64,000 nt of DNA from Lytechinus pictus (lineage: Eukaryota): NCBI RefSeq assembly GCF_037042905.1, contig NC_087252.1, positions 6,884,001 through 6,948,000 of the forward strand. Reading direction: 5' to 3'. Positions 9,478-49,600 of the stretch are shown here, piece by piece. The position numbers and the translations under genes were made by a program. The notes beneath the pieces are model-generated. The model was not told the DNA's origin. It was given only the letters and a program-made list of their open reading frames with translations, and did no database searches. Within the stretch, counting starts at the first letter, position 1. Each line of letters begins with the position of its first letter.

Positions 9478-9522
9478 ATATCCATCTCTCTGTCTTACTC
9501 TCTCTCTCTCTCACTCTCTACT

Positions 9523-9565
<43 letters not shown>

Positions 9566-16837: not shown

Positions 16838-16908
16838 TCTATAGCCTCTTTGAGGCGTTCAAGTGCAGTATTCACAAGACAAGACAAGACAAGACAAGAC
16901 AAGACAAG
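16838..16908 (+). mobile_element. Very short 5'-truncated retroposon end with (CAAGA)n tail
   Basis: About 70-bp insert ending in ACAAG repeats; copy B has the empty site GAAATCTAGAACACAAAATT near 52908. Confidence 0.6.
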
Positions 16909-17764: not shown

Positions 17765-18003
17765 GGTGATTTCAAGTCTGGTGTTGGCGTTGGTGTTGGT
17801 GTTAGTGTTGGGATTTGGATTGCTTCCCCCTTGCTCCAAAACTTATTCTGAGTTTGTAAAACTGATCGAGATCATGTTATTGACATCTCAACAACCAGTA
17901 AGTGACTTTTAAGGAGCATCTTCATTCTATGTTTGGTATAATACTCGTATAAGAATTGACCTAACACCAACACCAAAAGGTCAACACTAAACTTGAAATC
18001 ACC
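17765..18003. mobile_element. MITE specific to copy A
   Basis: GGTGATTTCAAGTCTGGTGTTG ... CAACACTAAACTTGAAATCACC; absent near 53765. Confidence 0.75.
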
Positions 18004-18521
18004 CACTATGTTTCTTAGTTTTTTTTCTTATGTCATTGTAAATTGAGTTTCCTTCAGTTGATATTCGGTCAGAATGTACGAAATATCGGAACCGAATATA
18101 GGCATGGGACTTATAACATAAAAGGTTTACTAAATCAGACCCCCCAAACACACACACACACACAAGCACTTTCCCACCCTCATCCACATACACACACAAA
18201 CAAACGAACATGAATTCCTCGTTTCGGGCCTGAAATATCTTTGGTAAGACTGTAATATATCCATAAAAACTTGGTTATTCACTACTTATCATGTTGCATT
18301 CACTGCGAGGATCACAGTAAGAACAACACTTACTAGCTTGTTCAATTTCACACCAGAAGTGAATATCAAACTTAAATTCCACTTTCCGGTGTCAGTCAAT
18401 GGCCAGCCGCGCGGGATACCGTGTATTAAATTATCTTCAAACATTTGGGGGGTTTTCTTGAAATTATAAAATTGAATGGAATTTGACAAGTAATTCAAAA
18501 AATGCTGTGCATTTTACTCAC

Positions 18522-18830
18522 CTTCCACCACAAAGTCCAAACTACCATCAGTACCCGGAATGTCACATCTATAGACCCCATCATCTGTTACTTCTGCACT
18601 AGAAATTTTCATCGCTGATTGTGTATCTGTCAGGGTAGTTACATCAAAGTTACTAAACTTTTCATCACCAGTGGCAGGGGCCGTTCCAGCAAAGATAATT
18701 TCACCTGTACTGTCATCTGCCCATATAATTAAACTTGCTGTTCCACCTGTAATATCACATGTGAGTGTGACATCAGTCCCAGCTGCTGCTGGCGAATTAC
18801 CGGTTACAGTTGCTGTTTGCCCATTGGTTC
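18522..18830 (-). CDS. Copy A Ig V-type domain exon
   Basis: GTNGQTATVTGNSPAAAGTDVTLTCDITGGTASLIIWADDSTGEIIFAGTAPATGDEKFSNFDVTTLTDTQSAMKISSAEVTDDGVYRCDIPGTDGSLDFVVE; open, 309 nt. Missed by the ORF track. Confidence 0.92.
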
Positions 18831-19672
18831 CTGGAATAAAGGAGAAAGTTCAAACAAATAAAACCAAAAGTCCATGGTATTGGCAGAAACATCATGGCAG
18901 GATAAAGGAATGAATCAAAATTAATGGTGCATTTATTGGAAAAGAGGTGTTTTCATCGAATACGAAACAATAGCGCGTAGAAAAAAAATCACACAACTTT
19001 TATTATTTATTGAAATGTTCACATATATAAAAAGTTAACTTCGGTTCGATGCATGGTTAAAACGAAATTGGCCAATACCAATTGCTTAGTTGTTTCACTA
19101 TAATAACGTAATTTAAGATTGAAATAAATAAATTTCTTTAATATTTGTAGATGTTGTTTTAAAGTTATAAAAACTTGTTTCTAACTTTAAACAATATTTG
19201 TTTTAAGTGATGGCTTAAACAACGCTCTTGTTTTTAAGAACGTACAGTGTTGGGAGTCTATCGTAGGCTTTCTCCTAACGATCCTTATCGATCGAACACA
19301 TTTAGACAGATATAGGTAGATATCATCATCCAGCTTCATATTATTGCAGCAAATAATACTAACAGATACAAGGGACTTGTTACTAAGTTCTTGACCTCAT
19401 AGCATGAGAATTGTTATTATAGTAACTTTGTTTCATTCAATTGTATCTTGTATTTTGTTTGGGCGTTGAACATTGTTACCATGGTAGTTAACATTGGCTG
19501 GTAAATTTACCATTTAGGCATCGTGTTCCTATTATAGGAAACATTTAGCTTGTAGGCTCATTGAACTATAGCTGCTCATCAGTAAACACACAGCCATTAT
19601 GAGAACAAATCGGTCCATACGTCCTTTCGACTACTCCTTTTCAACTCAACGAATTTTTTTAAATATAATTAC

Positions 19673-19754
19673 CAACAACAAGCATCAGAACTGAAAATGC
19701 ATGCCATGAAACCAGGCCAGCCATCACCTTGGACATGTCAGTGGTGAACAGCAT
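19673..19754 (-). CDS. Copy A signal-peptide exon
   Basis: MLFTTDMSKVMAGLVSWHAFSVLMLVV(G), 82 nt, donor G|gtaatt. Confidence 0.8.
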
Positions 19755-25005: not shown

Positions 25006-25065
25006 TCACATCTCCAGAGTAGAAGCATACAACCCTTCATCCAAGTCATTCAGAGACAGGTAACT
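25006..25065 (-). CDS. Copy B terminal coding exon (Tyr-containing tail)
   Basis: tttcacag|AGTTAC...ATGTGA = SYLSLNDLDEGLYASTLEM*. Confidence 0.75.
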   Translation of the reverse strand, partial: SYLSLNDLDEGLYASTLEM

Positions 25066-28000
25066 CTGTGAAATAAGAAGAAAAAATCGTTACAATTTTA
25101 ACGTCATCAAAAATTAAATTTCAAACCAGTAATGATAAATTCAAATTTACTTCTATAATGACGGTACTTCACAGATTAGATTTACATAGTTATTTATTTA
25201 TTTCCACAAAAACAATATATAATACATGTTATAACGATCAATATGATAGTCAACTGCATGTCAAGAGAGACTCCTGTTAAAAGAAAAAATAGACTCCTTG
25301 TCATATATATGGTACACATTAAAATCATAGAAATTAATATACAAAAAAAGCAAACAAATAAGTGCCTTCTTCTGTAAGATATCTGTACGACCTAAACGTA
25401 GTTGTACGTTCACATCCCCAAACCACATTCCAATAAGAGATATGTGTGTATATACTTACATGTAAGAGAGCTCGTAATGAAAAATATAAGACAGAATCGT
25501 TTTAATCTTACGTGTTTTTTTTTTAAATCCTTTCCATACTCTTCAGGATGTTATCAAAGTTACTCCGATTTGGGGGTTCCTTGTCCCAACAACCAGTCAT
25601 AACTGCATACCTTTGAAATAAAGTAAAGGTGATGTGTAAAAAAAATTACATAAGTAATTAAGAAGTATTAAAAATGGAATTTTAAGACGGGTAGGCCTAC
25701 TACAGGCTGAAATTTTATGATTTAAACAGACAGGGTTAATTTACACAAACAAAACCCTGAAAATTCCTTCAAAATCGTACAATAACAAAGGTATGATATT
25801 TTAAAGTTTTGCACTATTTTTTGTGAAAAAGTTGTACGCATGTCCACTCGAGTATGCAATGAGAAAGCTGGTTCTCACTTCTTCTCTTTTAAGATATATG
25901 AATTTAGATTTTTTTTTTGTCCGCCTGAAATGAAAAAATGAAATGAATATCGGTGAGATATTTATTGCAGTATTTTTTTTGTTTAAAAAAGACATATTGT
26001 ATGCACGTAAGAATAACAATATGCAATAATAATGATATCAGGTAATTACTTAAGAAAACACAAAATGGTACAAAACATAATCGGCCCACTTATTGGATAC
26101 TTATCGTGCATGTATATAGCTGTTAAAAAAAAATCAAAATTCAATGACCTCGACATTTGTCAGATCTTGATGAAATCATAAGCATTTTGCTAAATGATTT
26201 TTACTATACTTTAGATGAAAATTATTTTCAACACGGAGTACCCCTTTAGTAAAGACCATTCAAATCATGTTTCCCAAGGATTGTGCGAAAAATCTGTATC
26301 TACGAAGATTGATTTTGTTAAAACTTTGTTGTGAATTTGGAACATATACGATAAATGAGTTTACGAGAGCAAACAACAAGTGAAATTCTCTATAGGTCAA
26401 TTTACAATTCTAGTAATCCTGGACAAGCAAGTTTTAGATTTTTTTGATTAAAAAAGGAAGTATTACACTTCTTGTGCACAGGGACGAGGGCGTGGCATCT
26501 GGTAACCATTATCAACCTCCGTCTGAACCGTGCTGAATGTCATATTTGGGTATGGCCTTGCACCTATCAGAATGTAAAAAGGAACAATGATATTATGAAG
26601 CATCTGAATATAGGATATCTAGAAGTTTCCCAAAATAATCATATATTGTTAGAAGTAGAAGTATGAACATGTAAAAGTTTGATTCCTTTTAATTAATATC
26701 TCGACACCGATAAACCGCTCATCCATGTTTGCAGATGTGCCCAACTGACAAAGAGGCGTAAATCTCAAGTTTTTTGTTCCGTTTATCACAGCTAAAATTA
26801 CTGCGTCTAATGTTGTACAGTATATCATTCATCTGATTGTCAGTCACAGGTTTAACCATACATAACCTAAATAACTTTATTTGTAGCAATTATTAATAAT
26901 TTATTAATTAATACATTTATATAGCGCATTACATTAACATTTCAATGCGCTTTAATCCCTTTTAAAATGTCCAACATCACCCGGCGTTTTATGTATTATT
27001 AGAATGTTGATATCATTATCTTTCGAGCCGAATAAAGATATCATGTAAAATGTTATTTTGATATTCCCGTCATTGTAGTTGTCGGTATTGTAGTAGCAGC
27101 AGTAGTCATGCTAGAAAAAGTAAAGATGTTGTTTTTGTTGTATTTTGCCTTTTATCAAAATCATTTATCATTTTATCATCGACAACTGGTGGAAATTATC
27201 ATGATCACCACAATCGTCAAACCCATCATTGTTATTTTGTGATATATGACTAAGATATTAGACATTAACACACAAAACTTCGTGCACCTCCTTTCTTACC
27301 CAGTGTCACGATTTCCCACAAGACGATACCAAAAGACCATATGTCTCCTTCTGTTGTTTGGTCACCCGTTGCCATGGTTTCTGGTGAACTCCATCTGGTT
27401 GGTTTCTATATAGGACGGTGTGCAGATTACAAAGAATCTTGCTTTAACAATGATTCAAGCGATTGGAAATTATAATCTGCAGTGACCATATAAAATGTCA
27501 AAGATGTCTTAATATTGGCCTAAGCAATAATAGTCTGGTATAGTTGCAGGTTGGGAATCAAAGTCAAGGTTCACGTGAATTATGGTTTTCAGCCTCGCTT
27601 CATTTAGTACCATTTATTTTTATTTAAATTGTTAAATAGGAGATAGATCTTTATAACAAGCCTACAACATAAACATTCATTATTGTAAGGCATAACGAGT
27701 CATACTTACAGCTACGTCACCAAAGATCGATGAAGAAAGTCCATAGTCTGATATCTTGCATTGCTTTCTTTCTCCTAGCAAAACATTGTGAGCGCAGAGA
27801 GCCCCGTGGATGATCTGAAGAAAAGAGAGATACACTTGCAACTCTATATAGTCTTTAGGGTATTCATATACATTTATTTTGATCTCTGTGAAAGTCGACA
27901 AATTTCCCGTCTTACATCTGTGTTAAAAAAGGAGCGATAAACCCTTCCTATTCCAATTGTAAGATTAATAATACCTGTAATGTTTCAAAACAAAAATAAT

Positions 28001-31000
28001 TTAGGTTTAAGGAGAGTATGGCTGCCGAAAATATTTCTGATGATATGGTTGTACAGAGTTGCAACCCTAATTGCGAAAACGATTTTCTACTGTATCTTGG
28101 ACCGGTCAAGTTTTCAAGTCTGACTTAAAGGGTCCATTTCAGCTTAAAGGGCGATTTTTATTTAAAAATTCAACTGCCTTCCTTTCTCCTCTTATGCCCC
28201 TTTTTTGTTAAGGAATCTCATAAAAATACCTTCTTAGATGCAAGGAACTGCATCCCTTTAGCAACCTGCCAAGCCAAGTAAAGTAGGGTACCCTCATCAA
28301 TACGAACACCGCTTGGTTTGAGATTGCTGTACGTAGGTTGAGATTGCACCCCTGAAGTCTGTAGATGGGTAAGGAGTGTACCCCCTGAGATGAACTCATA
28401 CAGAATACTACCTGCATGCGTGAATACACATCAAAAACTGTGGTGTTAACCGGTATACATAGATGACCACACCAGTTATTTTACACCGGTGTTGAATCGG
28501 TGGTGTTAGTTTTACACCTAGAGGTGTCATTACAACACCTTTGGTTGTTACATTTACACGCTATGGTGTTATTTTTTATCTTTAGGGTGTAATCTTAACA
28601 CCTCGGGGTGTGGTCCTCTATTAACACCAACTGGTGTCAGCAGTTTTTACAGTGTAATAAATTGTAATAGAAAGGAAAACTCTGTGACGTCATGTTTAAT
28701 AATTGCATCTTCTTCATTGTAATTTAGGATAAGTATCCTTGAATTATCAAATGGAATGGATAGTTATTGTGTCTTCTCCTTTTGTTTTGGTGTAAGTACC
28801 CCCAACCCCTCCCCCTCTCTGTGTCTCTCACACACACTCTCAATCTCTTCTAGGGGTTTTCACTCATCAGAAGGTGCAATGTGCCATCTTTTAATTGGTA
28901 ACTACCTCTCTCTTGTGTCTCGTCGAGATGCCTTGGATGAGGGAAAGCGGCCAACGAACTCTTTAGCGATTAAAACAAATATTGATATATTTTTGTTGTT
29001 TCCAAGAGAACAAATTATATTCGATATTATATATTTAAGAGGGTTTACGGACCTTGGTCTTTACAATATCCTAGGCATTTGACAATATTTGGTTGATCCG
29101 ATAGCTCGTAAAGTACCTTGATGGCTTGAAGAAATTGTAATGACTTTGTCACGCGATCTAAGATAATGTATAGTACATAATGATATAATGGTATGACCTT
29201 TCATTTTAATATTCCCCTTCCGGAGTGTTTACCCTTGACCAATTTCTGGACAAGCAGAGAAAATATCAACAACAAAAAATTATTATTATTAAAAATGGGG
29301 GCATGTTTTCCCCCCTTTCAGTAACCCCTGCCCCCCTCCTTCTTTGATCCCGGTGAAACTGAATTCAAGTGAAAGGGAAGCCTGTGGCGTCAAAACTATT
29401 TAATTATTTACTTTGGTTTCCAATCTGCTTGTTCAGAATAACATCCTATAACGATGTGGTAATAGCATAAATAATTGAATTAAAATTTAATTGAGATGAC
29501 AAATTAAACATGACCTTCATATTTGAACTTCTCTCATTGTTTTTAATTATTGTTAACTTTACGAGCTACAAATCATCACCTGGTATTTGCCTAATAGCAA
29601 CGTCGAGATGGTTTTGTTTTGATCGAAGGTCTCCCTTCCATACCTCGCCGAAGTCACCCCGTCCAATCGAGCCAAGTCTGGTGAAGAATGTCACGTTTTC
29701 ACGGGAAATGACGAAGGAGTGGGTAGGACCAAGTCTTAACGTTGAGTATGCTGCATTGTTATAAAACATATATATTTTCGACTAAGTTCATTTAAAATAC
29801 ATGTACTTAAAACACCTAATCCATTATGTCTGATCTTGTGAGATTTGTAGTAAGTGTCTTGGTCAATAATATATTTCCAGAGAATATAAAGTAACTATGG
29901 ATTTGAGATTAAAAAATAGAGGGATACTCCGGGCTGAAAATAAATCATATCTTAAGAAATAGAAAAGAATTCAATGAGCAAAGTGCTGAAAATGTCGTTA
30001 AAATATGATCGCAAATAACTCAATTAGTGAAATTTCAAGTTTAGTAATATTTTGTGAAAACAGTTATATGCACATATTAAGATGGACTGATGATGCCATG
30101 TCCCCACATTTTTTTTTCTTATGTTATTACTTGAAATCATAATTATCTAAAATATTCATGCAAGTTGTAAGATATGTCTCCCTCATGACAAAATAGTTGC
30201 AGTAATGAATATCCGGTTCCATGACAATTGCTCCGCCGACATTTGCTCCGCCGACAATTGCTACGCAAAATAAGACAACTGCTCCGCCGACAATTGCTCC
30301 GGACAGTTGCTCCGCCGACAGTTGCTCCGTCGACACTTGCTCCGCCGATATGTGCTCCGTCGACACTTCGTCCCTTATTTCACGAAGTGACGGATGAGCG
30401 CGCAACTTTTAAAAAGTTAGTTTTGAGTAAATCGCGTTCAAAGGTTTAGACCTCAATCTCAACGTCTTCTACGTATGCAGGGTGAATAAATGTCATATCC
30501 TCGTATTGGGCATATTCTGGACAATATTCAAGTCCAATCATTTGCATTTTACTTAAATATTTAAGAAGATAATGAGCTGTAAGCAGAACCATATTTTCGT
30601 GAAAAAAATATATTACGGTACGCGCTTAGATTTATTTTCACGAAGTGACGGATAGTGCTCCGCGCGCATAACCGTCACTTCGTGAAAATCCGAAATTCAA
30701 GGACGCGCTTCAATTTTGTTTTTACGAAGTGACGGGAAGAAGCTTCGCCTTAGTCCCACGTATAGCCTTGTCGATGCAATTCGATAAATAGGGTCTAGAT
30801 ATACATAATTTCTTTATTTGCTATTGTAAGAAAAATCAATTCCAAATGTCAGATCAATTAGGCCTACATTTACTTCTTTTAATAAAAAAAATCACTTTAA
30901 ATACTTTGATTTCATTTTTCAAGTAATAACAGGAAGACCAATTAACACACGTGTTATACTTATGCCTATTTCATTTCAATATTATCTTCATTTTTGAGAG

Positions 31001-34000
31001 ATGAACTCTGATATAAGGAAAATTCCTAACAGGATATTAATAAAATGACTACAAGAGATACAACACATTTCGTCTTTGTAATTCTATGTTTGAGAAAGGA
31101 CTATTAAGCACTGACTCCGTTGGAGTAGATAATGCGACATTACAAATATTTGTCAGTTTACTAACCTCCCTACCCCCCTGAAAATATGAAATCCCAATGA
31201 AGTTTTTCTTAAATGTTGTTTATAATGTTAAAGGTATTCTCTGTTAAGGCCGAGTTAGCTATTCAAAATTATTCTTTGAGACTTAATTACCTCGAAAATG
31301 GTACAAAACTAAATGTGGAACTAACTTGTCAAAACGGCAACAAGAATTGGTAAATTATGACTGATTGTCACCCCCCCCCCCCCCCAACAACAAAAAATGA
31401 GAAGAATAAGAATTTGTCAAAATAAAGCGAGCAAATGTCGAGTACAACCACTCTTGCTCCCTTTCTTTCTCTCTCTACTCAAGTTTTCCCTTATCAAAAT
31501 AGTCATGTATTCTCTCCTGAACATCATATTAAAATACCTTTATCATGCAAAATAAGAGTTATGACTTTTCATAAATCATTGAAAATACTAACTATATAAA
31601 ATAAATTCCACAAAGTTAGCAATGTAAATAAATTTAGAAGAACTCTTTTAATTTTATAACATATGAAACCATAGCAGCAAGTGACAAATAGACAAGTAAA
31701 ATATATATTTTTTTCATGTCAATCATTATGATAATGGTTATGCTTAATAAATTCATTAAAATATCGATTCCATACAATGTTAACAATGGAAATATATTTT
31801 TAATTCAATAATATATCAGACCATAATCGCTAGTGACAAACACAACGACATTCATAATTATTATAATGAATCTAATATTGCACTGTGAAATGCATAAGAA
31901 GTGAATTATCAGGTACACATTGACAGAATTTTGTCATTTTATATGCTTAACACAATTAGCAATCCTAGTCTGTGAATGCCACATTTTGAAATACAGAATT
32001 GCTAACTAGTACCAAATTCAATAAGTTACTCTACATTCAAAACATTCCAATGTCAAATGAATACATTTTCCATCACAAGAATACTGGAATATAATCAATG
32101 CTAGTGGTGCAGGAAAGTTGTATTCTCTATGTCTATTTGTATTGACATACACATATTCAAGTAAAATGGTATATTTCTTTTCCATCAAAATAGAAGTAAC
32201 ATAATCACTATTACTTATTACATTCACTGCACTTTTTTTTAAGAATGTCATAATTAAATCCTTCGACACAGTTGCCTTGAGAGTTATTTCATCTTTTTAC
32301 ACACTGTCAAGTACTAAAAAGTCTACCAAAGGAAACATGTAAACCTTTGAATAAACAAGTATCAACTAATGAAACTCAAACATGGAAATATAATTTTAAA
32401 TCAATTATTTAACTTCATATCAAACAGGATCATTTATTAACAAATTTATAATCAAAATCCCGAACGACAGCGTCAAAAGCAACAAAAAAATGCAGTAATA
32501 AAAATACGAATGACTAAGTAGATTTGTATTTTTTCCATCATTCTCAAGTTATTGGCTAAATACACTCATCAATACATTTTCCAATCAAACACTTGTTTTT
32601 TTAATAGCAAATTATGGCCCGAGTCCAAAAACAGAAAGATACAGTAAAATACACCTTAGTTCCAACTCTGAAAACTTTACAATAAATTGTCACGATTTTA
32701 GCAAGTAACATCTTTGAATTAGTGGGATCATGTAGAAATGAGTTAAATTCTTACTACAAATATACAGAAAAAACATGTGCTGCAATCTATCTTTAACCTC
32801 AAGCTAATGTAAAATGTCTGCTAAAAATAATCATGTATTATTTCTTTCCTGAATATCATTCATTAGAAAATTCTAGAATAAAATGATGACACATCAACTG
32901 TAAAACTGCATAAACCAGGTGTGAATAAAAGATAAAGAGCTGAAAATGCTGAAGAGTTTTAGGGGATGAAATTGAATGAGCTCTCAAACTATTGTACACA
33001 AAAAGGGATATCAAGCTGAAAATAAAAAACAAAAATAGCAGAAATCAGCTTAAGAATTCTCACACCCCTGATAGACCAAAAAAAATTACCTCATGGAAGG
33101 GGGGGGGGGGGTCTGTATTAACACATCTGGCTTTTGAAAATGAATTCATGAAAACTTAATATGATTTTCACCCTTACTAGTAATATATCCTGTAACAATC
33201 GAGTTTCACAATGCATGTCAGTCTAAATTGTATGGTTATGTTATTATAAGAAAGTATGAAGTATTAATACAATACATTTAAGAACAATAAAGATAGTAAC
33301 ATTCTGTTTTACAAAAATGTAGACATATGCAGGATTTTTTTTTTAGATGGCACCAAGCAAAATGAAAACATGCCAAACAAAATGAATAAAGAAGGGTAAT
33401 TCTTCTGCATCCATATGCGGACGATGTGTATTTATAAGCAATTTAAACATGTGGTAAGGATAGCAGATAAATGACTATTCTGAACTTTATATTTGACTGT
33501 ATATATAAAACATATTTGAAGGAGTTCATAATTATATCACTGTAAGAGCACAGACTAGTTCAAGCAACATGGTTTCTTTATATAATACACTGCTCTAAAA
33601 CTAAACTTATGTTGAAGTCAAAATCACAAGAAAGTTAAAACTGGCATCAGTTACCCAGCTGGAAACTAAAGAAAAAGTTAAGTGAGAGCCTTAAAAGGCC
33701 ATGAGGCAGAGCCAATTCCTTCATACTTTTCACAAGTGTAGACAGAGTTTCATCATCAGAATCGCAGTCAGAGTTCTCAGAAGATGTTTCTAGTTTGGTT
33801 ACTTCAACAATTCCAAACCAGGGCACACTGTTAAAATCCAGTCACTACCAATTCAACTGTCATGTCACCAAATCAGATCACATCTGCGGTGCTCAGGGAA
33901 TTATCAATGACCCACCTGACAAGCATGTTGGCTCCTGGATCCAACCTAAGTATGTAGAATGAAATAATATACAAATCAACTGTTTGTTTTCAAAGTTTTT

Positions 34001-37000
34001 TGTCAATCCAATATCGAATTTGTAGAATTGATAGCAGACTCAATATTTTAAATTGCCCTTTCCAAACAAAACCTGCCCAGTCAGTATGGTACTACAAGAT
34101 TATTAAGAATATATTTTATATACTCTATTTACCACTGATATTTACAGCAAATATTCCAATTAAATGTTTCCAATTTATAAGAAAGTTTCAGCTGAAAATA
34201 TGATTACATGTCAAATTTCAATGCTCTAGGGCAGTACACAATGCACTTGTCAAAATGGAAATAATGTTCTTTTACAACTTAGAAATACACTTGTATCTGC
34301 TAAATGCTAACATATTCCCAAATTAATATTTTCTGGTTATTATAACTTTGAGTCAATATATTTTTATAACTACATTATTTACTAGATTTGCAATTGAAAT
34401 TAATTTTGGTAATGAGTGCAAATGAATGGATGGCTGATACTGACAGGATGTCATGTTGGATTATAACACTATGAAAATTCTCACCTTGAATTGTATTGTT
34501 AAATAGCGAGTGTACTGGTTCCAGGACTTCTCTCATTTGTTCTCTGAAACATTGCTTACTGTATATACTGCATCTGAAAAGAAATGAAAATATCTTCATC
34601 ATGATTATGATCAGAACCGAGGTGCAGTTTATTTATGTAGATTCTTTCATTTTCTGTAAAATGTCATAGAGATAAGGGCGAGGGAGTGGCCACCAAACAA
34701 CAAATTATAAAGCTCTATCTACATTAGATGTAGACTGACTCTTGACTCGAGATGATTTATTTAAAACAGAAATCTCCAGTAATCCTCATTTTAACTAAGG
34801 ACTCAACTTATTTGCACAAATGGGTTGGCCACTAACTTAACTGAATTAATTCATGATCTCAGCATTCTCACTGTCATTTATAGAAATCCCCCCCCCATCC
34901 CCTGGGGAGGGGGGTATCTTTCCATTACATATGTTTGAAAGTACTACTGAATTTAGATGATGAGTTAACTAACACTACAGTAAAGAAGACAATATAATCT
35001 ATGTATTTATTTCAGATTTTTTTGGTGGAAATTTATTGCAAATACTAGGCACTTGTGAAGACAAGTTAGAACATAACGAGTTAACATTGGACTCTTTTGG
35101 AGTCCAATGGCAATGCAATTCGTGTAAATTAATCTAGATCTAGGCCCAAAATAATGCCCCTGTAGATTTTTTAACCAAATCCTCAGCCTTCATTAAATCT
35201 ATTTAGTCTTGATTAATGTTGGGAAAATATTCTTACCCTTTTAGTTTGACTAAACTTAACATTCAAGTTGAATTGAGGACAAAAAAATGACACGCAATAC
35301 TCCATTCAATTTTCACTGACACGAAAATGAATATGTGGGGCAATGTATGGAAAGATTGGACGTTAATTTAAGGATTTTTGCGATCAGAGACGTTTAAAAG
35401 GGTTGAAATTACTCGAAATGACTTAAAGAGCTGCATTAAATTTATTTACTTTCCTACATTTACAAAAAAACTCACCATTTCATGGTCTTCGGCTGTTCCA
35501 GACTGTAAAAATTTGCCTTCCGTCACTTCGTGAAAAAACTCTTGAGTGATGAAGCGTATTCGTTTATTTTCACGAATTGACGGCTGCTTATCCGTCACTT
35601 CGTAAAAACAAGAAATCCTTAATCTGGGTATTTTCGTGTGTGCACTGTTGTCATAGCAACGTAATTAGAAATTTTTGTGATCTGAAACTTGTTGAGGTTC
35701 GAGATATGAATTAAAGATCTCCAAAAATGCAAAAAACTCAAAATTGAAAAAAATGCGATTTTTCTCGTATCCGTCACTTCGTAAAAACAGGGACGACTTG
35801 CTCCGCCTATATTTGCTCCGCCGATATTTGCTCCGCCGACATCTGCTCCGCCGACATCTGCTCCGCCGAAAATTGCTCCGCCGACACTTGCTCCGCCGAT
35901 ATTTGCTCCGCCGACATCTGCTCCGCCGAAAATTGCTCCGCCGACAATTGCTCCGCCGATATTTGCTCCGCCGACATCTGCTCCGATTATACGACAATTG
36001 CTCCGCCGATAATTGCTCCGCCGACATCTGCTCCGCCGTAAATTGCTCCGATAATGCCACAATTATTTATTTATTTTTTTATTCGTACTTTCATACGCAT
36101 AACAATTTTAGCACAGGCTGAAGGCGTCAATTTACCATGGAGCATAGCTCCATGAATTTACAAAGTAAACTTAAACTATGCTTGCATGATATATTACATG
36201 TCATAGGCCTACACAGGGGCCGCGGAACGGTTTTCAAAGTGAGGGCTGAGTCAAAAGTGGGGGGCTGTCCATGCTAAAAATCACAATCATATGGTCATTC
36301 TTACGTTTTTTGTACACGGCTTTGGAAAATTGGGGGGCTAAAGCCCCCCGGCTCCGCGGCCCCTGATACATGCATATAGAAAGAAATAGAAAAAAAAAGG
36401 GTAAGCACAAAGGAGGGATAGATATTCTTAATGCTTATTCATGGTGGGGGGGGGGAGCGTTTGTGTAAGTTTTATTACGTGCTTGGCGATTAAAATGAAA
36501 AAAAAAAACGCGTTTTCATGTAATCATTATAACCATATAGCTCCATGTTATAACAGTAGAAACAAATTAGACATAGGCCTACCCCATTCTTAGCGTCAAA
36601 ATCGCTCAGACTGGCGAAATATGCTCCGAAGTGGAGACATTTGCTCCAGGTGAAATTCAACGGTATACCCCACCTTATTTTGTCGAAAACCTGTACTGTA
36701 GTCACGCAAAATGTTTACTGTCGGCAAATTTTGTGCCATACAAACATGACCAAGACATTCAGTAAGTAAAAATTAATATTCAAGTAAATACCAACTTGTG
36801 AAAGGCTACATGTCGTGTCACCTTCTCGGCACACCCCTCCACTCTGGTTTCCATATCATCTCGTACACACAGTGCTCTCAGTCTGGTCTCAACATCCACA
36901 TCATGTCATACACACCGTAGGTTTTTAGATTATGATAATACTGTATATAATAGTGAGTTGCTTTTTTGTTTTATGTTGATCATGATTGTTTTCTTCACTG

Positions 37001-37585
37001 ATAGAAAAAGGATAATTAATTTTTTTTTAATAATCCAAAAATAAAATCCATATGTTCTGTTTTATATAGTTATTAGTCAAGGTTACTTTAGTTCGCATTA
37101 GTTCTCATTGTTTATACGTTTTAATTCTTATGCATTATTCCGATTGATATTGTAGTTTAAATTTGACTATGTATTGTTACTTTGATTTTGTTGTGCTTTG
37201 TGAACGGAAAGTGAATAAATCTTAATCTAAATCTAAATATGGTCCGCCAATAGTCGAATTATATTCATTATGATGTTATAATGTAAGTAACAATTTGTTG
37301 TTGATGGGGGATATAATTTTACACGTAGTTTCAAAAAATAAAAAAAATCAATCAAACAAGATTTTCTTCTATAAATGATATACCTTCATGTGTATATGGC
37401 CGCCTATGTATTTTCCAAGAATGAACTATATGAGAAGAAAACGTGTGTTCATGTACTTATTATCATTATCATTGTACCACCATTATCATCATCAGCATCT
37501 TCATCATCACCATCATTATCATTGTCGTCGTCGTTTTGCTTATGCGGAAATCAAACAAAAATGATTGTGAAAAGGGTTATGGAGG

Positions 37586-37616
<31 letters not shown>

Positions 37617-40600
37617 GGGGAGTGAGTGAGAGCTTGAGGAAAAAGGGAGGTGTATGACTTATTATTTCTGAATATCGCGATTTCTGTTTATTCATGGGAT
37701 TGTAATAAAAGGATAAACTTAACAAGTTCTCGTTATTATAATTTTTTATTTGATTTACTGATCAGAACATGATATAAATGAAATCATGAAGACTGTACGT
37801 TCTCGACAGTTTTATTGACGTTTTCCAACCAAAACTACACTTTAATGACTGCAAACACCTTCATTTTCACACGCTCGCAACTATGGACACATTATACATG
37901 TAATTGAGAGTAGTGTCATTTTCAAAACCTTTCTTAGCTGCAAGGAATACTGAATCTCATTTCCACAATGTGCATCTGAATGCACAATGCCTGTGTTTCT
38001 AACATGTACCCAAATTACCAAATTTAAAGAACACATGTTAAGATCTAATGAATCAGCAAAATAATCCACATTCTATCATGAGCAGCAGGCATAACAGCCT
38101 ATATACTCTTCAATACTTCAATTACAGTTTGTCGAAAGAAATAACACAAAAAAAATAATATATAGAATTGTAACTCTGGTAAATATATCCAAAATATTAA
38201 ATTAACGCATCGTGCTCTCATTTCTTTTACGAGATATCTCCCCCCCCCCCCCCGAGATATGCTTCATGTTTACAATTTAAAAAAGGCGTATAAATGTCCC
38301 CTTTCCATGTCAATAACAGCTCGTGCTTTGTGCTCGCATTATAAATTCAGTGAGATGCGTATTGGGTTTCATGAATTTGTAACTATATTATTGCTGGTAT
38401 ATATATTATTGTCTTTTAAAAATAACATTATTTGTTTAGACGTAATGAGAGAGATACATACATATATTCATTTATTATAATATATTTATATTGTCGCTAT
38501 TGCACAGAATAGAACAAAAATACAACCGAAGTCTATTTTTATAGTAACTCACCAGTAGCGTAATGAGCCAACAACAAAAAATGGAGGGGGCGAGACAAGG
38601 ATGACATTTATTTTCCTTTCCTTTATTCTTGTTTTTTCATTGGTGGGGAGAATGGGGGGATCCGTGACCCCTAGCACGCCCCTCCCCCATCTGTACGCAA
38701 GTGATGATCATACTTTCGTTTGAACCAAATTGAAGGAAAAAAAGTGCAAGGGTAGATAAGGCCGAAGACGTAAATAAAAATTATTGATAAAAATATTAAT
38801 AATTATAATACTGATAAATATACAATAAATCAAGCGGTCACCAATAAAAATAAACAACGTGAAAGAACAAAACGAGAAAGAGAGAGAGAGAGAGAGCCCG
38901 CGCGAATGTATGGTGTATAAGTTGCTGGAAAGCAGAGGAGATATTGTGTCCAGCACCCCCCCCCCCTCCCCAAATTCTCTCCCCGCTCAAGACCGGAGTG
39001 AAACCAATGATAATAATATATGAACAAAAATCCAGATTCACAATTTCAATGGGGAGTGTGTCATTCCCCTTCTCCGTTACAATTTGTCAAGTGGCAGCGG
39101 CAGGGAGAACAATTTGTTTTGTTTTTTTAAGCAGAAAGCTGTGATGATAGGGGGAGAATAAAATAAATAAAACATTAACGAATAACAAGAACAAAACAAC
39201 GACAAAACAATTTGTATCAGGATGAATTTCTTATCATTTAACATAGACCAACTTGGAGAAATAAGATGTTCATGCAATTGTCGTATAATCGGAGCAGATG
39301 TCGGCGGAGCAAATATCGGCGGAGCAATTTTCGTATAATCGGAGCAATTTTCGGCGGAGCAAATATCGGCGGAGCAATTGTCGCGGAGCAATTGTCGTAT
39401 AATCGGAGCAGATGTCGGCGGAGCAATTTTCGGCGGAGCAGATGTCGGCGGAGCAGATGTCGGCGGAGCAGATGTCGGCGGAGCACATGTCGGCGGAGCA
39501 AATATCGGCGGAGCAAATATCGGCGGAGCAAGTGTCGACGGAGCACATATCGGCGGAGCAAGTGTCGACGGAGCAACTGTCGGCGGAGCAATTGTCCGGA
39601 GCAATTGTCGGCGGAGCAACTGTCTTATTTTGCGTAGCAATTGTCGGCGGAGCAGATGTCGGCGGAGCAATTGTCGGGTCACCGAATATCCAATACGTGA
39701 AACCAGTTGTCAATTGAAATATTCTTTATTGTAGGAGGTGAACATTTTAATGAACATTATTGCATATAATAAAATACTAAGTTACAAGTGGGAATAACAA
39801 AATCATCAATTAACCCACTGAATATTCATGAAGAAATGCAAAAAAAAAAAATTTATAGTGATATAATACAAATCTTTAAAATGTCATAACCTTTTTCCCC
39901 TTCATAGAATTGGTAATGCTTTGTTTGATTTTCCTTTATCTATTGAAATAATATTATTTTCCGCCTGGAGTACCCGTTTAATAGTAGTGGTATACATCTT
40001 ATATAGAGTTCCCTCGCACCACTTAGAATAAAGATAAGGTAAACACCTGCTGATGCTTCAAATATAATTTTCACTTATCCTTTTTATGTACTTTTGACCT
40101 ATCGCCATAGAGACCTAATTGTGAATTATCAGGATGATAACGACATAGTATGAATGAGGTACTTTTTTTAAACAGAACATTAAATCAAAGTAGTTGTATG
40201 AATGCATAATGTTTAATAGAAAAAAAAATGTTGACAATAAAATACACGTTTATTTGAATAAATAATATTTAGATGGAGTTTAAGATTTAATGATACACAG
40301 CTAATATGCAGAATCAATAGAAAAGTTAGAAAATTTCCTTCTTAAGTAACTTCTAACCTCGATTCCCACTTTGAATCATCTCATAAGCCACGTTATCATT
40401 CACCTCCTGTGGTATATTTATTTCATTGCTGTAAAAAATATATAAATTGAATAGAGTTTATTTTATCTCATGAGAAATTATATTTTTTTGTTTACATCCA
40501 CTCAAAGGCATTTCATGGCACATATATATCAGCAACAATCACAATGAGGGAAGTGTTATATTATTCAATGAGTATTACCCATTATTAAAGCGTTCCTAAG

Positions 40601-43600
40601 AATGGGATTTAAAAAAAAAGTCTCAAAGAACGCCTTTATTATTTGAAGGATTTGGGTTTTCCCCTATTGGAAATAAAATCAAATATATATCTGTTGAAAT
40701 GAATTTATCCTTTGTCATCCTATTTCCGTCAGTTAATGTGTATGTATCTCAGTAAAATTTACGCGTGAACGTTTGAATTTACGTTAATACTAGCTTGTGT
40801 GTTGAGGCGAAGTGTGTATGGTTAGAAATGTGAGTGTGTTCCGTTCTTTTCAATGGTATAGGATGTTGTAAAGTTTGGTATAAATATGTGTGGTTATTTA
40901 GTATGGGCTGTTACAGTATCGGGTTTGAGGGTGTGCGCGAGTGGATGAATGTGTGGTGAGTGAGTGCAAGGTTGTACGGGCGTATTCGTAAGGTGAGTTA
41001 GAAGAGTGTGTGCATGCACGGGATGCGAGTTGTGTGTCAGAGGACGGGAGTGTTAGAGAGGGAGTGATGTGTTCGAGTGTGAGAGAGTTGTGTGTGTATG
41101 ATAGGGAGCAAATGTGAAAGTGCAGGCAGTGTCTGTAAAAGTGTGTGTATCTTTAAAGATAAGTGTGAGTGCGTGGGTGTGTGTGAGATTATCTGAGTGG
41201 GTGTCTGGGTGAGTGTGCGTGTTTTTTTTCATGTGGGGGAGAGAAAATGGTGTGCAAAATTTGTGGGTTTGGTTTAATGGAGATATGTACCTATTATAGA
41301 TTAATTGTAGTCATATAAAATGTGAGCGTGGGTGTTGCCTTCTAGGGTGTGTGTGTATGTGTGTCCGACAAAATATTTTTCCTTCTACTTACCTCTTATT
41401 ATTCTTTGACTCATGGAACTCTAGTGGATAAATATATAAATATACACGTTTACAATAGAGTGATGAAGGAAAAAATGTAGCCATATGTAAACTGAGATGG
41501 CAAAATAAATTCAAGAGAGCACTCGAGGTCAAGATGCTCAAGATTTGATATACCTTTGCCATCAACTTTCAGTTTTATCTCCCCTTTATAAAACATTAAC
41601 GTATCGATGATTATTTAATATCCCACCTACTTGAATTATGGTATAGTAATTCTAACACGATCTTACTCAGCGGAAATATGCTCAGATCTAGTTAGATAAA
41701 CGACAAGACACGATATGAGTAGCGGGGGGGGGAACAATGTTGCTTTAATGTGTATTTTCATGATCATCAGAAAAAAATATATTCCAACTTTGCACCTTTA
41801 CAAATATTAGACGAGGAACACCTTTAAAGTTGCACCTTTGAACATGTTCCTCTTGTGTTGGAGTTATACTCTTTTAAATTAAACAAGGGTTAACTTATTA
41901 CATTACATTACTTCTTCTTTTACATTCACATTTACTCTATGTGAATATAACTACTCAGTAATCACCTGGTTTGGTTTTTCCCCTAAGAAGAATGAATTGA
42001 ACAATGTTGACGATGATAGAAGCTACTAAGAGGATGGCTAAAATAGCTATTCCAGCAGATGCTCCAGAACTCAAACCAGACGGTGCACAAGGACATGGTG
42101 TAGGCTCGGGTGTAGTCTCTGGTTAGTGAGAGAGTTTTATATCAGATGTTAATATAGATTGTGGAATTTATTTCATATGAATTAATTCGTAAACCTGTAA
42201 AATCCGATTGATCATAGATTATATTTCAACCATAATCATAGATTATACTACAAACATACAGCAAGAGGTAGAAGGTCCATGCTGCAACCCAGTTTTCGGG
42301 ACGACATTCTATAATAAAACCCGTGCAGTATGTCAGTCATGTATGGTCTCATTTCTAAATCTAATTATATGTCCATAATTATTTTCAATCTTCAAATTTG
42401 CCGCAAAACATATAACAAAATAGTAAAATAAATCACTGTCCTAAACTGAATTTCCTTTAAAAGACAAGAAGAAAAACGTCTCGGCCCGGATTCACAAGGA
42501 GGAATGACTAAGTTCTATAGAGCTAGATAATAACTTAGGGCTGAGCTAAATTCTAGGGGGTTAGAATTTGTATTTCACAAAGAAGGGTAATGTTAACCCA
42601 ATAGTTAAAAAGGTAGTGAATTAAATATAATTAAATATAACAATACATGGGTTTACAACTAATCAGTTGCATACGTAGTCGACAACTGTTAAAATGCACC
42701 ATATACGGGTAATGGGCTACATTTTTATTTTACAAAGTTTCAAAGTGGCGAAGATGAAAGTCTAATTTTGAAGAATGTGATATCATATCTACAATAATTT
42801 CCTACTAAATCTGCATCTCTCCCACTTGGGTTTTGCGCCACCCCCATTATTACATATATTTCACAGTATTTTAGTCATTCATTGTTCATGTTCAAACATT
42901 AAATTAATGTGTTTGTGCTGGTGATGTGGTGTACTAAAGAGGTGCCTCGGCCTTTTGTCGGTATGTTTGAGGGAGGGTGTCTTTGAACTTTTTGAAGATA
43001 TTCCTTTTAACGAAAAAGTATTTCACTAACTTATGGCAGTATGATGGGTTTGATAGACATGCAGTATAATGACTTACTGAAAACATTTACGATAAATATA
43101 AATGAAATTCTAATGATAACATTAAAAATGATAATAGAGATAGCATTAATAATTATTGTTATAATACGAACAATAGAAATAATGATCATAAATAATATTT
43201 ACAATAATAATAATGATCACAATGATAATAACGGTGATAATAAAAATAACATTAAATGATAATAAAACTAACAATGATCAGAATAATAATTATAATAATG
43301 ACAATATTATCATATAATGTAAATACTACTAATAATAATTGGTATTTCGTAGCACCATTATCCTATAAATATTCTATTCGGCTGCGCAGTGTTATTTTTG
43401 TCATTATAAGATAGAAAAGGGACTTCCCAAAAAATATCCACCACCGAAAGAGGAACCTTATAAATAACATTTTGAAAGAAATGAATTTACTCTTCGTCTG
43501 GAGCTCAGGAAAACAATAGTAAACGGACTTTGGACCCTAATTATATCTTGAATACCAAAGCGAATTCGCATGATGTGTGCAAATAAATATCATATTGACA

Positions 43601-46600: not shown

Positions 46601-49600
46601 ACATGAATAAACTTTTTACTTATTATTATTTCGTATTCACGACGGGTGTTATTTGTGAAGGTGTATTAGGCATGTTAGGTGCATATTAATAAAAACGATA
46701 TTACCAAAAATGTGTTTGAAAAATCAAACTGACATTGTCACCAAGAATAAACAATAAATAACCCAAATACATACAAAAGAATGATAAAAGCACAAAATTG
46801 GATGAAGGAAAAGAAGATTATCAAAGGTCAACATACCCTCCGTTGATTTCGAGGTGTGATCGTCTATACCAGTTGGCGTTCCTTTCAAGTGAGTTTGATC
46901 AATGAAGAAAACAAATATTTGAAAGTGTTACAGTATATCTGCTAAACCTGGGTGAAAATTGATAAATTTTATCACATAAAATCAAACTAAAATTTTTTTC
47001 CCCTGATGGGTTCATGATTGGTTTATGATATTGTTAGTTTTTCATTATATTGTTTGCATGTGGTCTTTGTTGGCCTAATAAAACAAATAAATACAAAAAC
47101 ATATCTAAGTAAAGGTGGAAAATATAACCCTGGCTTACATCAGTAATTACATTTGCAATGTAGTGTCTAAAACAAAGGTTAATACACCATAATGTTTTAC
47201 GTAGATTGACTGACAACGTTATCATGGTTATGATTCATAGTCGCTGGTATATTGTGCAGGATTCTTTCATATTAATCCTAAATAAAGTATTGGTTTTGTC
47301 TTGATACCGTTTTGATATTCAAGTGTGTAATATCCATTGAGTAATTATTTGGAGAAGGTGAAAAAGGATATGACCATCTGCACGATGTAACAAATAAAAT
47401 GTTGCATGTAATTCACAATTTCGTGCAAATATTATATTATAAAATGATTAAAGTAGGCCTACATACCAGCTGTCGGGGGAAGACTGGCCGTTCCTGATAT
47501 TGAAAACAACAAAAATAATTTAAAAAATAGTTTTAAAAAATAGATGAATATTTTTTTTACATGAAAATATAAATAAATCTCCATCGTCTCCCCGTGAATG
47601 TAAGATTATTGACCAGGAATTCGTACACCGCACAGCCTTCCAATATGCCGCCATCGGGTCTTTTTTGGCCACATTGCTCACTGAGTTTGAGGAAGGTTGA
47701 CATGGTTTGTAGAAAGCCACAATCAAAACTTCCATGTTGATTTTTAAATGGCAATTTCTCATTTTTATTAGAAAATAGATAACGAATGAAAAAAATTGGG
47801 ATAGGGTGAATTTGATTGCTTTTTCTTCGCATTGTATATATGTACTAGCTTTTAAACAAAATGAGTCTCATGAATGCTTGTTATTGTCATTATTGTGTTT
47901 ATCTCTTTTGTACCCTTTTTTTTTTTTAGGGGGGGCGAGGGGTCTATACAAAGGCAGTTTCCCCTACAAACATGACATACACATACAAATCACTTATACA
48001 CTTTACTGCATAGCCAAAAACATATTTACGAGCACACACAAGCGTGCCCCCACCCCGGCAAACCCTCACACACACGCACGTGCGCACACACAACCTTGCA
48101 CTAAAAGCTGAATTCTGGATATAAAAGAATCGACAGGAGGAAGGGGCTTTGGGGCTATAAGAAAATATAAAACCTGCGGGGTCACAAGAAAATCCTAAAC
48201 AAGAACAAACTTATCACATGGAAGGGTTGAAATCTTGAGGTTTCCAAAAGCGACAAGAAAGAAGATTTTTTTAAGGTAAAGATATATATATATAAGAATC
48301 AGAATTTTGAAGGTATATTTTCTTACTTATTGGGTCATATGTAACTGCTGCACTAAGTGATGTATTTCCAAGGTAATTACCAGCCATACACGTGTACTCT
48401 GTTCCAGCTTCAGGATTTGATACAGTGTACTCCTTCACACTATTCAGTGATTCATGTATCAGGGTTCCATTAGAGAATATATAGTAGTTTCTCATTGTTG
48501 GAGTAGGTTCATTCTGTGAAGTTCATGTTACTCTGATCCTATCTGTTCCCTCTGTTACATAATCAGCAGTGACAGTAGTACCAGCTGTAGATGGAGAGGC
48601 TAGGTTGGGAAAAGAAAAAGTATATTGAATAGATTAAAATCAGCCATGTTTTGTATTGTTAAATTCAATATCATAAGGGTGTCAAAGGTATTTCCCCTAA
48701 TAGTATGTTTATCTATCCTTGTATATGCACAAAGTAATGATAGGAAGAAAACAAAATTTCACTTCTGTTTTATTGGACATTGTACTCACACCGTGGTTTT
48801 CTCTTATAAAAAATAATAATGAGATTCTGAACAGGTAGCTGCCTTCCAGTTTATATATCATTGTATATCAGATCCATCAGCTTTTATTTAAATAAGGAAG
48901 ATCTCACCATACGAACAAATAGGCTGCCATGTTGTTCAGAGGGTAATCCAGTCCAAATTAAGTACTTTCAGGGAAAATTAAAAATCAGACGAGTAGATAG
49001 TAGGATGAAAGTAATGGAGACTTGAGATTGCAGCAATGGTGATGTCATAGTTATAGACAATGCCATGGCAACTCTTCCATTCTCTCCAATACATAAAAAG
49101 AAATTAAGGTTTTACTTCACATTATATTTTTATGTAATTCGGACATAAACAATACGCTACTTATGTCATATCATGGTCACTGTCCTAAGTAGCATGTAAA
49201 GTGTAGGCCTTCTTTAAAAATTACTATTCCTACTTACTATGAGTATCTAAATCTCTTGATTCCTGTCTTTCCAGCTCTGTAAGCTGATATCCAGTAGCCC
49301 GACATTCCAAAGTCTGTAAATGATTTTCTTGAGTTGCTGGGAATGTGAACACACTCTTCGTATTAGATAATGGTGGATTAGATGGTTCTGTTGGGTGTGT
49401 TTCAACTATTGTCTTCCCATTGCCATTAGTCTGTTCAGTTTCATTCAGATACCATGTGATGTTAACGGGTGGTTTGCTTCCAACAACTTCACACGTTGCT
49501 TCATACATATCCTCTCCACTACTACTTACAAAACTTCTTACAGTTGGTCCAGTTAAAGTTCCTGGAGCTAAATTAAGAAGTATAAATCAGAAAAAAATAT

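What the first reader, a model, noticed from the sequence alone, without database searches (positions are those of the whole stretch)
29735..40395. ITAM-spaced tyrosine pair (YEMI-x6-YSTL) assembled across a 10.6-kb intron; first half is also an ITIM
Seen: splicing 40358 to 29750 gives DNVAYEMIQSGNRAYSTL. Established: the ITAM consensus is YxxL/I-x6-8-YxxL/I and the ITIM consensus is V/I/L/S-x-Y-x-x-L/V/I, which VAYEMI fits. Further motifs: PTYSNL in the kinase insert (YxN and YxxL), and SYLSL and GLYAST in the tail. Inference: the receptor could rely on Src-family phosphorylation and Syk/SHP2-type tandem SH2 recruitment. Caveat: weak candidate micro-exons (29816-29857, 40047-40114) would change the spacing.
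Basis: partly seen in the sequence, partly recalled or inferred. Interest (0 to 1): 0.7.

Follow-up and report, generated by a model that had tools for sequence, protein, structure and literature searches.

The report
Sea-urchin dead-kinase receptors with ITAM-like pair
The two spliced tyrosine motifs are real and conserved in a tandem family of sea-urchin immunoglobulin receptors whose tyrosine-kinase domain lacks its catalytic residues, so the family likely signals like immune receptors by borrowing an outside kinase, although this particular gene copy carries a premature stop and a frameshift and is probably a pseudogene.

Summary
Observation confirmed. Exon end 40358 (GT) joins 29750 (AG) in phase 1 across 10,607 bp, giving YEMI-x6-YSTL. 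Of 27 relatives holding this region, 24 keep the pair: 18 with spacer 6, 6 Diadema models with spacer 9. None has extra residues matching the proposed micro-exons. The joint itself was not covered by RNA data.
The gene is a three-Ig, single-pass receptor with a TIE2-like kinase fold. The kinase is predicted dead family-wide: Arg for the β3 Lys in 74 of 74, no αC Glu in 75, no catalytic Asp in 74. That supports reliance on an outside kinase.
Three corrections. The ITIM fits only 11 of 27. Similar tyrosine pairs occur in active relatives (juxtamembrane 9 of 75, tail 31 of 75), so they may be inherited RTK docking sites. This copy is broken: TGA at 48525 and a one-base-short frame giving TAA at 25525, which cuts off the tail motifs. 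The neighbouring copy matches an intact Lytechinus pictus RefSeq protein over all 331 residues compared.
Ten paper searches found no description; key kinome papers were unavailable.

The parts
55605..55686 (-). Gene 1 exon 1, signal peptide
54813..55121 (-). Gene 1 exon 2, N-terminal V-type Ig domain (most variable domain, mean 80% identity among four close paralogues)
   Evidence: (V-set match on the 75%-identical relative P0004)
49238..49567 (-). Gene 1 exon 3, C2-type Ig domain
48327..48599 (-). Gene 1 exon 4, third Ig-like domain; carries a premature TGA
48523..48525 (-). Premature TGA (codon 266) where the relatives aligned that include this exon have Cys
46837..46881 (-). Gene 1 stalk exon (Thr/Ser/Pro-rich)
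41966..42118 (-). Gene 1 transmembrane exon
41393..41420 (-). Gene 1 28-nt juxtamembrane micro-exon (real, matches relatives; upstream of both tyrosines)
40358..40428 (-). Gene 1 juxtamembrane exon holding the first tyrosine motif (YEMI, 40385-40374)
29751..40357 (-). 10,607-bp phase-1 GT-AG intron between the two tyrosines; holds three copies of a 15-bp minisatellite element
29580..29750 (-). Exon holding the second motif (YSTL, 29748-29737), the Gly loop (29664-29647) and VAIR in place of VAIK (29601-29590)
   Evidence: RNA joint 29580/29157
29053..29157 (-). Pseudokinase exon with helix αC lacking Glu
28230..28411 (-). Pseudokinase exon with short kinase insert (YSNL, 28331-28320)
27710..27814 (-). 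Pseudokinase exon: HGA in place of HRD (27808-27800) and DYG (27748-27740)
27300..27405 (-). Pseudokinase C-lobe exon
26467..26563 (-). Pseudokinase C-lobe exon
25512..25610 (-). Last kinase exon; one base short in a T/A run, giving TAA at 25525-25523, 14 nt before the last junction
   Evidence: three RNA contig forms of relatives have one base more (table 5c)
25006..25065 (-). Tail exon with a second tyrosine pair (YLSL-x7-YAST); not reached in frame in this copy
2454..19754 (-). Gene 2, tandem paralogue: exons 19754-19673, 18830-18522, 14322-13993, 5459-5187 and stalk exon 3277-3251; 2498-2454 is a stalk-exon remnant with an AT acceptor; transmembrane and kinase exons lie beyond the window edge
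   Evidence: 331 of 331 residues identical to L. pictus XP_063959537.1

Best explanation
The motif pair is a conserved feature of a tandem, sea-urchin family of Ig-domain receptors whose tyrosine-kinase domain lacks the catalytic Lys, Glu and Asp; intact members likely signal by being phosphorylated in trans on the two juxtamembrane tyrosines and would then recruit a tandem-SH2 protein, most likely Syk, while the copy in this window is broken and probably a pseudogene. Shown by sequence: architecture, splice, motif conservation, loss of catalytic residues, tandem clustering, spliced RNA from relatives, and the two lesions in this copy. Inferred: a cell-surface or foreign ligand binds the variable V domain and clusters receptors; a Src-family kinase or an active RTK partner phosphorylates both tyrosines; Syk (or SHP2) docks through both SH2 domains; the dead kinase acts as a scaffold presenting further sites (kinase-insert YxN, tail pair). 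The pair was probably inherited from an active RTK ancestor and kept after catalysis was lost.
For: Splice and phases. Pair kept in 24 of 27 representatives from Lytechinus, Strongylocentrotus and Diadema; Y-E/K-M-I in 27 of 27 while neighbouring columns vary. Shuffle probability 0.0009. Catalytic loss: Arg 74 of 74, αC Glu 0 of 75, catalytic Asp 0 of 74, against Lys 122 of 138, Glu 118 of 138 and Asp 133 of 142 in the other kinases fetched. The dead kinases form one clade (FastTree support 0.992, 108 domains) and its named members are all echinoids. In the AlphaFold model of P0002 (mean pLDDT 84.6), residues 1-15, holding both tyrosines, lie outside the confident fold. Ectodomains diverge faster than the kinase: P0003 versus P0011 is 38% against 90%; IgV 80% against kinase 94% in four close paralogues. 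The named members with contig data from the core cluster share one contig length per species, with runs of adjacent accessions. Sea urchins have annotated Syk/ZAP70 proteins, and amphioxus SYK binds and phosphorylates an ITAM receptor (PMC13344425, passages). Spliced RNA contigs bridge all seven introns from 29580 down to the tail exon. Pseudogene status: two lesions; no protein identical to gene 1 was returned by three homologue searches or among the members of the three nearest clusters; at five covered kinase positions every RNA contig differs from this copy (table 3).
Against: No binding or phosphorylation data. The spacer is 9 in all six Diadema sequences, outside the 6-8 consensus. The acidic residue sits at -4, not at -3 as in the recalled ITAM consensus. 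Active relatives from starfish, acorn worm and amphioxus carry similar juxtamembrane pairs (9 of 75, 0.6 expected) and tail pairs (31 of 75, 1.2 expected), so the pattern predates kinase loss. Three of 27 lack the second tyrosine, and the divergent members P0037, P0052 and P0071 show no juxtamembrane pair. Low pLDDT at the N-terminus may only reflect a thin alignment there. For pseudogene status: the tail lesion is in a homopolymer run and could be an assembly error; an annotated isoform of a paralogue (XP_063959547.1) skips the exon that holds the TGA; private substitutions in this kinase (5) are within the family range of 1-10.
Confidence: 0.55

Rival explanations
1. The two tyrosines are ordinary, independent RTK docking sites for single-SH2 proteins, inherited from an active ancestor. 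The family works as a HER3-like or PTK7-like co-receptor of an active RTK, and the ITAM spacing is incidental.
For: Pairs in active relatives have spacers from about 6 to 12. Spacer 9 in Diadema against 6 in Lytechinus and Strongylocentrotus. The first motif is more invariant than the second (27 against 24 of 27). The first tail tyrosine aligns with a TIE2 tail tyrosine. An active relative exists in S. purpuratus (P0165).
Against: Both +3 hydrophobic residues are kept across the family. The spacer is fixed at 6 in 35 of 35 non-Diadema sequences with a pair. Fast ectodomain change and tandem expansion are more typical of recognition receptors than of developmental co-receptors (inference).
Confidence: 0.3
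2. The family is mainly inhibitory or switch-type: the first motif acts as an ITIM or ITSM and the pair recruits SHP2 or SHIP, as the first reader half suggested.
For: -2 residue V or S in 11 of 27 and T in 5 of 27. Amphioxus has ITIM receptors that are phosphorylated by Lck and recruit phosphatases (PMC8211107, passages). Amphioxus SYK itself dampens NF-kB (PMC13344425).
Against: The -2 position is among the least conserved near the motif; 11 of 27 fit neither consensus.
Confidence: 0.1
3. This copy is functional as a shortened isoform: it skips the exon with the TGA, keeps the tyrosine pair and loses only the tail, or both lesions are assembly errors.
For: Skipping exons 4-5 keeps the frame to residue 608, and this skip is annotated in a paralogue. 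The TAA lies 14 nt before the last junction, close enough to escape decay under the recalled 50-nt rule. All splice sites are intact.
Against: Two separate lesions. No matching protein record. RNA contigs carry other alleles wherever diagnostic sites are covered, although that run may be another individual.
Confidence: 0.2
4. The kinase domain keeps weak or atypical activity and phosphorylates the pair itself.
For: The Gly loop, the catalytic-loop Asn (72 of 73) and the DxG Asp (72 of 73) are kept, so ATP or metal binding is possible. The fold is intact.
Against: Lys, Glu and the catalytic Asp are all absent in every member examined.
Confidence: 0.05

Closest known systems
Receptor tyrosine pseudokinases (PTK7, ROR1/2, RYK, HER3, EphA10/B6, STYK1; list recalled; general definition in PMC13519141, passages)
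   Same: Single-pass receptor with an intact kinase fold lacking catalytic residues; presumed scaffold role; HER3 is phosphorylated in trans (recalled).
   Different: Those are low-copy genes (recalled). This is a tandem expansion with diverging and swapped ectodomains (three Ig; Sushi in P0037; single Ig in P0052) and tyrosine pairs on both sides of the domain.
TIE2 / TEK kinase (PDB 2oo8, 1fvr, 3l8p)
   Same: Best single-domain sequence match (E 3e-48, 167 bits, against RET 152) and best structural match (TM 0.75); the first tail tyrosine aligns.
   Different: TIE2 is active and has an Ig-EGF-FN3 ectodomain (recalled). Here there is no EGF or FN3 match in P0004 or P0035 and the catalytic residues are lost.
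Active invertebrate Ig/FN3 RTKs auto-named Cad96Ca-like, FGFR-like or RET in starfish, brittle star, sea cucumber, acorn worm, amphioxus, brachiopod and arthropods; possibly the EXTK expansions of D'Aniello et al. 2008 (seen only as one sentence in review PMC3342872)
   Same: Highest-scoring active kinases under the family profile; many share a kinase-insert YxN, a tail pair and sometimes a juxtamembrane pair.
   Different: They keep Lys, Glu and HRD. The dead clade was found only in echinoids among the sequences I could name.
ITAM-bearing Ig receptors: vertebrate CD3/CD79/FcR-gamma (recalled), oyster Ig receptor signalling through CgSyk (PMC11999971 and PMC13344425, passages), amphioxus ITAM-R (PMC13344425)
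   Same: Ig ectodomain, cytoplasmic YxxI/L-x6-YxxL, no catalytic activity of its own.
   Different: None of these is described as carrying a kinase-fold domain; their Syk link is shown experimentally, here it is only inferred.
L. pictus XP_063959537.1, XP_063959538.1, XP_063959544.1; L. variegatus XP_041470044.1; S. purpuratus XP_030834160.1; D. antillarum XP_071480806.1
   Same: Same family and architecture; gene 2 is identical to the first over the 331 residues compared.
   Different: Automatic names (FGFR-like, angiopoietin receptor-like, Tie-1-like, Cad96Ca-like, Fer-like) hide that they form one dead-kinase family. Gene 1 has no matching record.

Membership tests
ITAM | Two YxxL/I motifs | tested here: met
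   YEMI and YSTL; pair in 24 of 27 relatives
ITAM | Spacer of 6-8 residues | tested here: inconclusive
   6 in this copy and in 18 of 27; 9 in all 6 Diadema sequences
ITAM | Acidic residue three before the first Tyr (extended consensus, recalled) | tested here: not met
   D/E sits at -4 in 21 of the 21 models long enough to show it; -3 is mostly N
ITAM | Cytoplasmic and outside a folded domain | tested here: met
   About 28 residues after the transmembrane helix; pLDDT below 50 for residues 1-15 of P0002; prediction only
ITAM | Src-family phosphorylation and Syk/ZAP70 tandem-SH2 binding | not testable with these tools
   Needs phosphopeptides; Syk proteins are annotated in sea urchins
ITIM | S/I/V/L-x-Y-x-x-I/V/L | tested here: inconclusive
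   Met in this copy (V); 11 of 27 relatives
ITIM | Recruits SHP-1/2 or SHIP and inhibits signalling | not testable with these tools
   No assay available
Receptor tyrosine pseudokinase | Ectodomain, one transmembrane helix, tyrosine-kinase fold | tested here: met
   Pfam Ig domains and PF07714; AlphaFold plus Foldseek TM 0.75 to TIE2
Receptor tyrosine pseudokinase | Loss of one or more catalytic residues | tested here: met
   β3 Arg 74 of 74; αC Glu 0 of 75; catalytic Asp 0 of 74
Receptor tyrosine pseudokinase | No measurable kinase activity | not testable with these tools
   Needs purified protein
Tie receptors | Tie-like kinase sequence | tested here: met
   Best single-domain PDB matches by sequence and fold; no Tie reference was in my tree, so orthology is untested
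Tie receptors | Ig-EGF-FN3 ectodomain and active kinase | tested here: not met
   Three Ig only in P0004 and P0035; catalytic residues lost
FGFR or Cad96Ca (RefSeq auto-names) | Active kinase; cadherin domain for Cad96Ca | tested here: not met
   No cadherin match in 6 of 6 proteins scanned; dead kinase
EXTK expanded tyrosine kinases | Clade membership and intron positions as defined by D'Aniello et al. 2008 | not testable with these tools
   Paper not held; only a review sentence seen
Intact protein-coding gene (this copy) | Open frame from start to terminal stop | tested here: not met
   Stops at codons 266 and 715

The most novel reading that the evidence does not exclude
Sea urchins have an undescribed, expanded family of variable Ig receptors in which an RTK lost catalysis and became an ITAM receptor. 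It signals through Src and Syk from a juxtamembrane pair, with paralogues tuned as activating or inhibitory by the -2 residue, and serves immune or self/non-self recognition. It would be a living intermediate showing how ITAM signalling can arise from RTK autophosphorylation sites.
Probability: 0.3. Interest if true: 0.85.

Novelty: new variant of a known kind. Interest (0 to 1): 0.55.

Why it matters
The echinoderm immune expansions I recall (TLR, NLR, scavenger receptors, SpTransformer) include no established Ig-domain ITAM receptor family. This family offers named, intact, expressed candidates and a cheap decisive test (phosphopeptide binding to sea-urchin Syk). It also bears on the origin of ITAMs: the same tyrosine pairs sit in active RTKs of other deuterostomes, so loss of catalysis in urchins would force outside kinases to use them. 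The copy in the window is itself of little value, being broken; the interest lies in the family.

Tried and rejected
No whole genome is held, so family size and gene 2's 3' half could not be checked; counts come from public protein models that include isoforms, fragments and old and new assemblies, and are not gene counts. The sequencing-run search listed no confirmed RNA holder; the one run (X1, share 0.08) proved to hold spliced contigs of relatives, mostly 90-95% alike. The laid stretch stopped at 30200, so the 40358/29750 joint was not observable; no contig shown covered 29750, which proves nothing. A rule-based scan of the intron for in-frame micro-exons found 0, but its pyrimidine filter would also reject the true acceptor (9 of 17), so it is uninformative. 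The first motif census used a pattern that could not match active kinases; it was replaced by the column-based census (family = at least 1.4 bits per column to a family profile, plus 13 listed cluster mates of P0052 and P0071 added by hand). Searches had exon boundaries off by 1-2 nt, corrected. The first AlphaFold run (14 sequences, pLDDT 49) was discarded. dN/dS between the two window copies over three Ig exons is 0.61 (IgV 0.68), which shows no positive selection and is confounded by the broken copy. V-domain variation looks clustered but was not tested statistically. The tree left out multi-kinase and low-scoring hits, has no vertebrate references and resolves no sister group. Rfam: 0 matches. 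Ten literature searches found no description of this family. Lapraz 2006 and D'Aniello 2008 are not held, and the 2006 sea-urchin kinome and immune-repertoire papers (recalled) were not seen; they or their supplements may already list it. Of six papers I read only search passages, no supplements. Earlier scan notes: eight shown concern other genes; searches returned none. No complex prediction was sent, since binding needs phosphotyrosine.


Full report
Observation. The splice is as described. The exon ends at 40358 before GTTAGA and the next begins at 29750 after AG; the intron is 10,607 bp and phase 1. The joined frame gives YEMI (40385-40374), six residues, then YSTL (29748-29737). The pattern arises in 0.09% of shuffles of the 59-residue juxtamembrane segment and 2.7% of shuffles of a whole cytoplasmic region, so a single occurrence is suggestive only. 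Conservation decides: 24 of 27 cluster representatives that hold this region keep the pair, 18 with spacer 6 (Lytechinus, Strongylocentrotus) and 6 with spacer 9 (Diadema). The three exceptions are one Tyr-to-Phe change and two models missing three residues. With isoforms and fragments the tally is 41 of 44. These are annotation models, not independent genes. Of the proposed micro-exons, the 68-nt one breaks the frame and the 42-nt one would add 14 residues seen in no relative. The joint itself was not seen in RNA, because the laid stretch ended at 30200.

The gene. A 16-exon minus-strand gene runs from 55686 to 25006: signal peptide, V-type Ig, C2-type Ig, third Ig, stalk, transmembrane helix, juxtamembrane region, kinase-like domain and short tail. 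All 15 introns are GT-AG. A tandem paralogue starts at 19754 and runs off the window; its first 331 residues are identical to L. pictus XP_063959537.1, so the DNA is very likely L. pictus. Relatives carry inconsistent automatic names. Those of the core cluster with contig data share one contig length per species, with runs of adjacent accessions, which indicates a cluster. Contigs of one run bridge all seven introns from 29580 to the tail exon; most laid contigs are 90-95% alike, so these are transcripts of relatives.

The kinase is predicted dead. The closest solved single domain is TIE2 by sequence (E 3e-48) and by fold (model pLDDT 84.6, TM 0.75). Among 86 family sequences, those covering each column have Arg at the β3 lysine in 74 of 74, no Glu on αC in 75 of 75 and no catalytic Asp in 74 of 74; they keep the catalytic-loop Asn and the DxG Asp in 72 of 73. 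The other kinases fetched have Lys 122 of 138, Glu 118 of 138 and Asp 133 of 142 in the same columns. The dead domains form one clade (0.992) in a tree of 108 domains. Its named members come from L. pictus, L. variegatus, S. purpuratus and Diadema. The 18 active relatives I named from the 150 best profile hits come from starfish, brittle star, sea cucumber, sea urchin, acorn worm, amphioxus, brachiopod and arthropods.

Limits on the ITAM and ITIM reading. The residue two before the first tyrosine is V 6, S 5, T 5, M 8, and E, P, N one each, so 11 of 27 fit an ITIM, 5 an ITSM (definition in PMC8211107) and 11 neither. The acidic residue is at -4 rather than the recalled -3. Among 75 active single-kinase relatives, looser tyrosine pairs occur in the juxtamembrane region in 9 (0.6 expected) and in the tail in 31 (1.2 expected), so paired tyrosines predate the loss of catalysis. 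Divergent dead members (P0037, P0052, P0071) show no juxtamembrane pair. In the model of P0002 both tyrosines lie in the low-confidence first 15 residues, outside the fold, while the block holding the first tail tyrosine is confidently placed. The tail pair mostly ends in Thr at +3 (43 of 86) and is a poorer ITAM.

This copy is broken. Codon 266 (48525-48523) is TGA where relatives have Cys, and the last kinase exon is one base short in a T/A run, giving TAA at 25525. Three RNA contig forms of relatives each have one base more at that junction (table 5c). No search returned a protein identical to this gene, and at five covered positions every contig differs from it. Against a firm pseudogene call: the second lesion could be a homopolymer error; skipping exons 4-5 keeps the frame to residue 608 and is annotated in a paralogue; and the kinase shows no excess of private changes (5, family range 1-10). 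I put the pseudogene reading at about 0.75.

Mechanism. Ectodomains change faster than the cytoplasmic part (38% against 90% for P0003 and P0011; IgV 80% against kinase 94% in four close paralogues) and are swapped in some members (Sushi in P0037). This fits a recognition family, although dN/dS of 0.61 between the two window copies shows no positive selection. The most likely working, all inferred: ligand clusters intact members, a Src-family kinase or an active RTK phosphorylates the two juxtamembrane tyrosines, and Syk docks with both SH2 domains, the dead kinase acting as scaffold. Sea-urchin Syk/ZAP70 proteins are annotated, and amphioxus SYK binds and phosphorylates an ITAM receptor (PMC13344425, passages); an oyster Ig receptor with an ITAM signals to ERK (PMC11999971, passages). 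The main rival is that these are independent RTK docking sites on a HER3-like co-receptor.

Novelty. Receptor pseudokinases, invertebrate ITAM receptors and lineage-specific RTK expansions (EXTK, one sentence in PMC3342872) are each known. I found no description of their combination in ten searches of the open library. The primary sea-urchin RTK and amphioxus kinase papers were not held and may list the family. The proteins are in RefSeq under misleading names. The scan's own notes held nothing on it. Verdict: a new variant of a known kind, interesting at family level, with a broken representative here and an untested mechanism.

Noticed in passing
window 30186-30368, 35796-36064, 39274-39712: Three copies of a 15-bp minisatellite element in the 10.6-kb intron. 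The third is inverted against the other two (91% over 184 nt and over 245 nt), so the pre-mRNA could fold back near both intron ends. Very high contig depth at 30003-30200 suggests a common dispersed repeat.
   Followed up: partly
window 156-21009 versus 43823-58539: The two genes are a recent tandem duplication: introns and flanks align at 72-90%; dS is 0.14 over three Ig exons.
   Followed up: partly
window about 47465-47495, 3277-3251, 2498-2454, 46881-46837: Two alternative stalk micro-exons per gene. Gene 2 has an intact one at 3277 and a second with an AT acceptor; gene 1 seems to hold a counterpart of the first near 47480 (boundaries not verified). RefSeq isoforms of a paralogue use one, both or neither.
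   Followed up: partly
window 49856-49831 and 14608-14583: Short remnant copy of part of the C2-Ig exon just upstream of the real exon in both genes.
   Followed up: no
window 23037-23691 and 51680-51997, minus strand: Open frames that resemble fragments of non-LTR retrotransposon ORF2 (recalled resemblance; not searched).
   Followed up: no
window 3622-4585 and 21633-22127: Tandem arrays with periods of about 153-193 bp and 42 bp.
   Followed up: no
proteins P0037, P0009, P0026, P0052, P0040: The same dead kinase sits behind different ectodomains: Sushi repeats, an Ig domain plus an unassigned region, a single Ig, and a Sema/PSI fusion that may be a merged gene model.
   Followed up: partly
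proteins P0181, P0086, P0079 (amphioxus), P0080, P0075 (acorn worm), P0085 (starfish): Catalytically intact or near-intact RTKs (P0075 reads HSD) with ITAM-like juxtamembrane pairs; P0181 has four overlapping pairs, and P0086 and P0079 have a tail pair with spacer 7 ending in Leu.
   Followed up: partly
proteins P0209-P0214 and many 315-351 aa models: RefSeq holds ectodomain-only and kinase-only models of this family; these may be split annotations caused by long introns, or real soluble and cytoplasmic forms.
   Followed up: no
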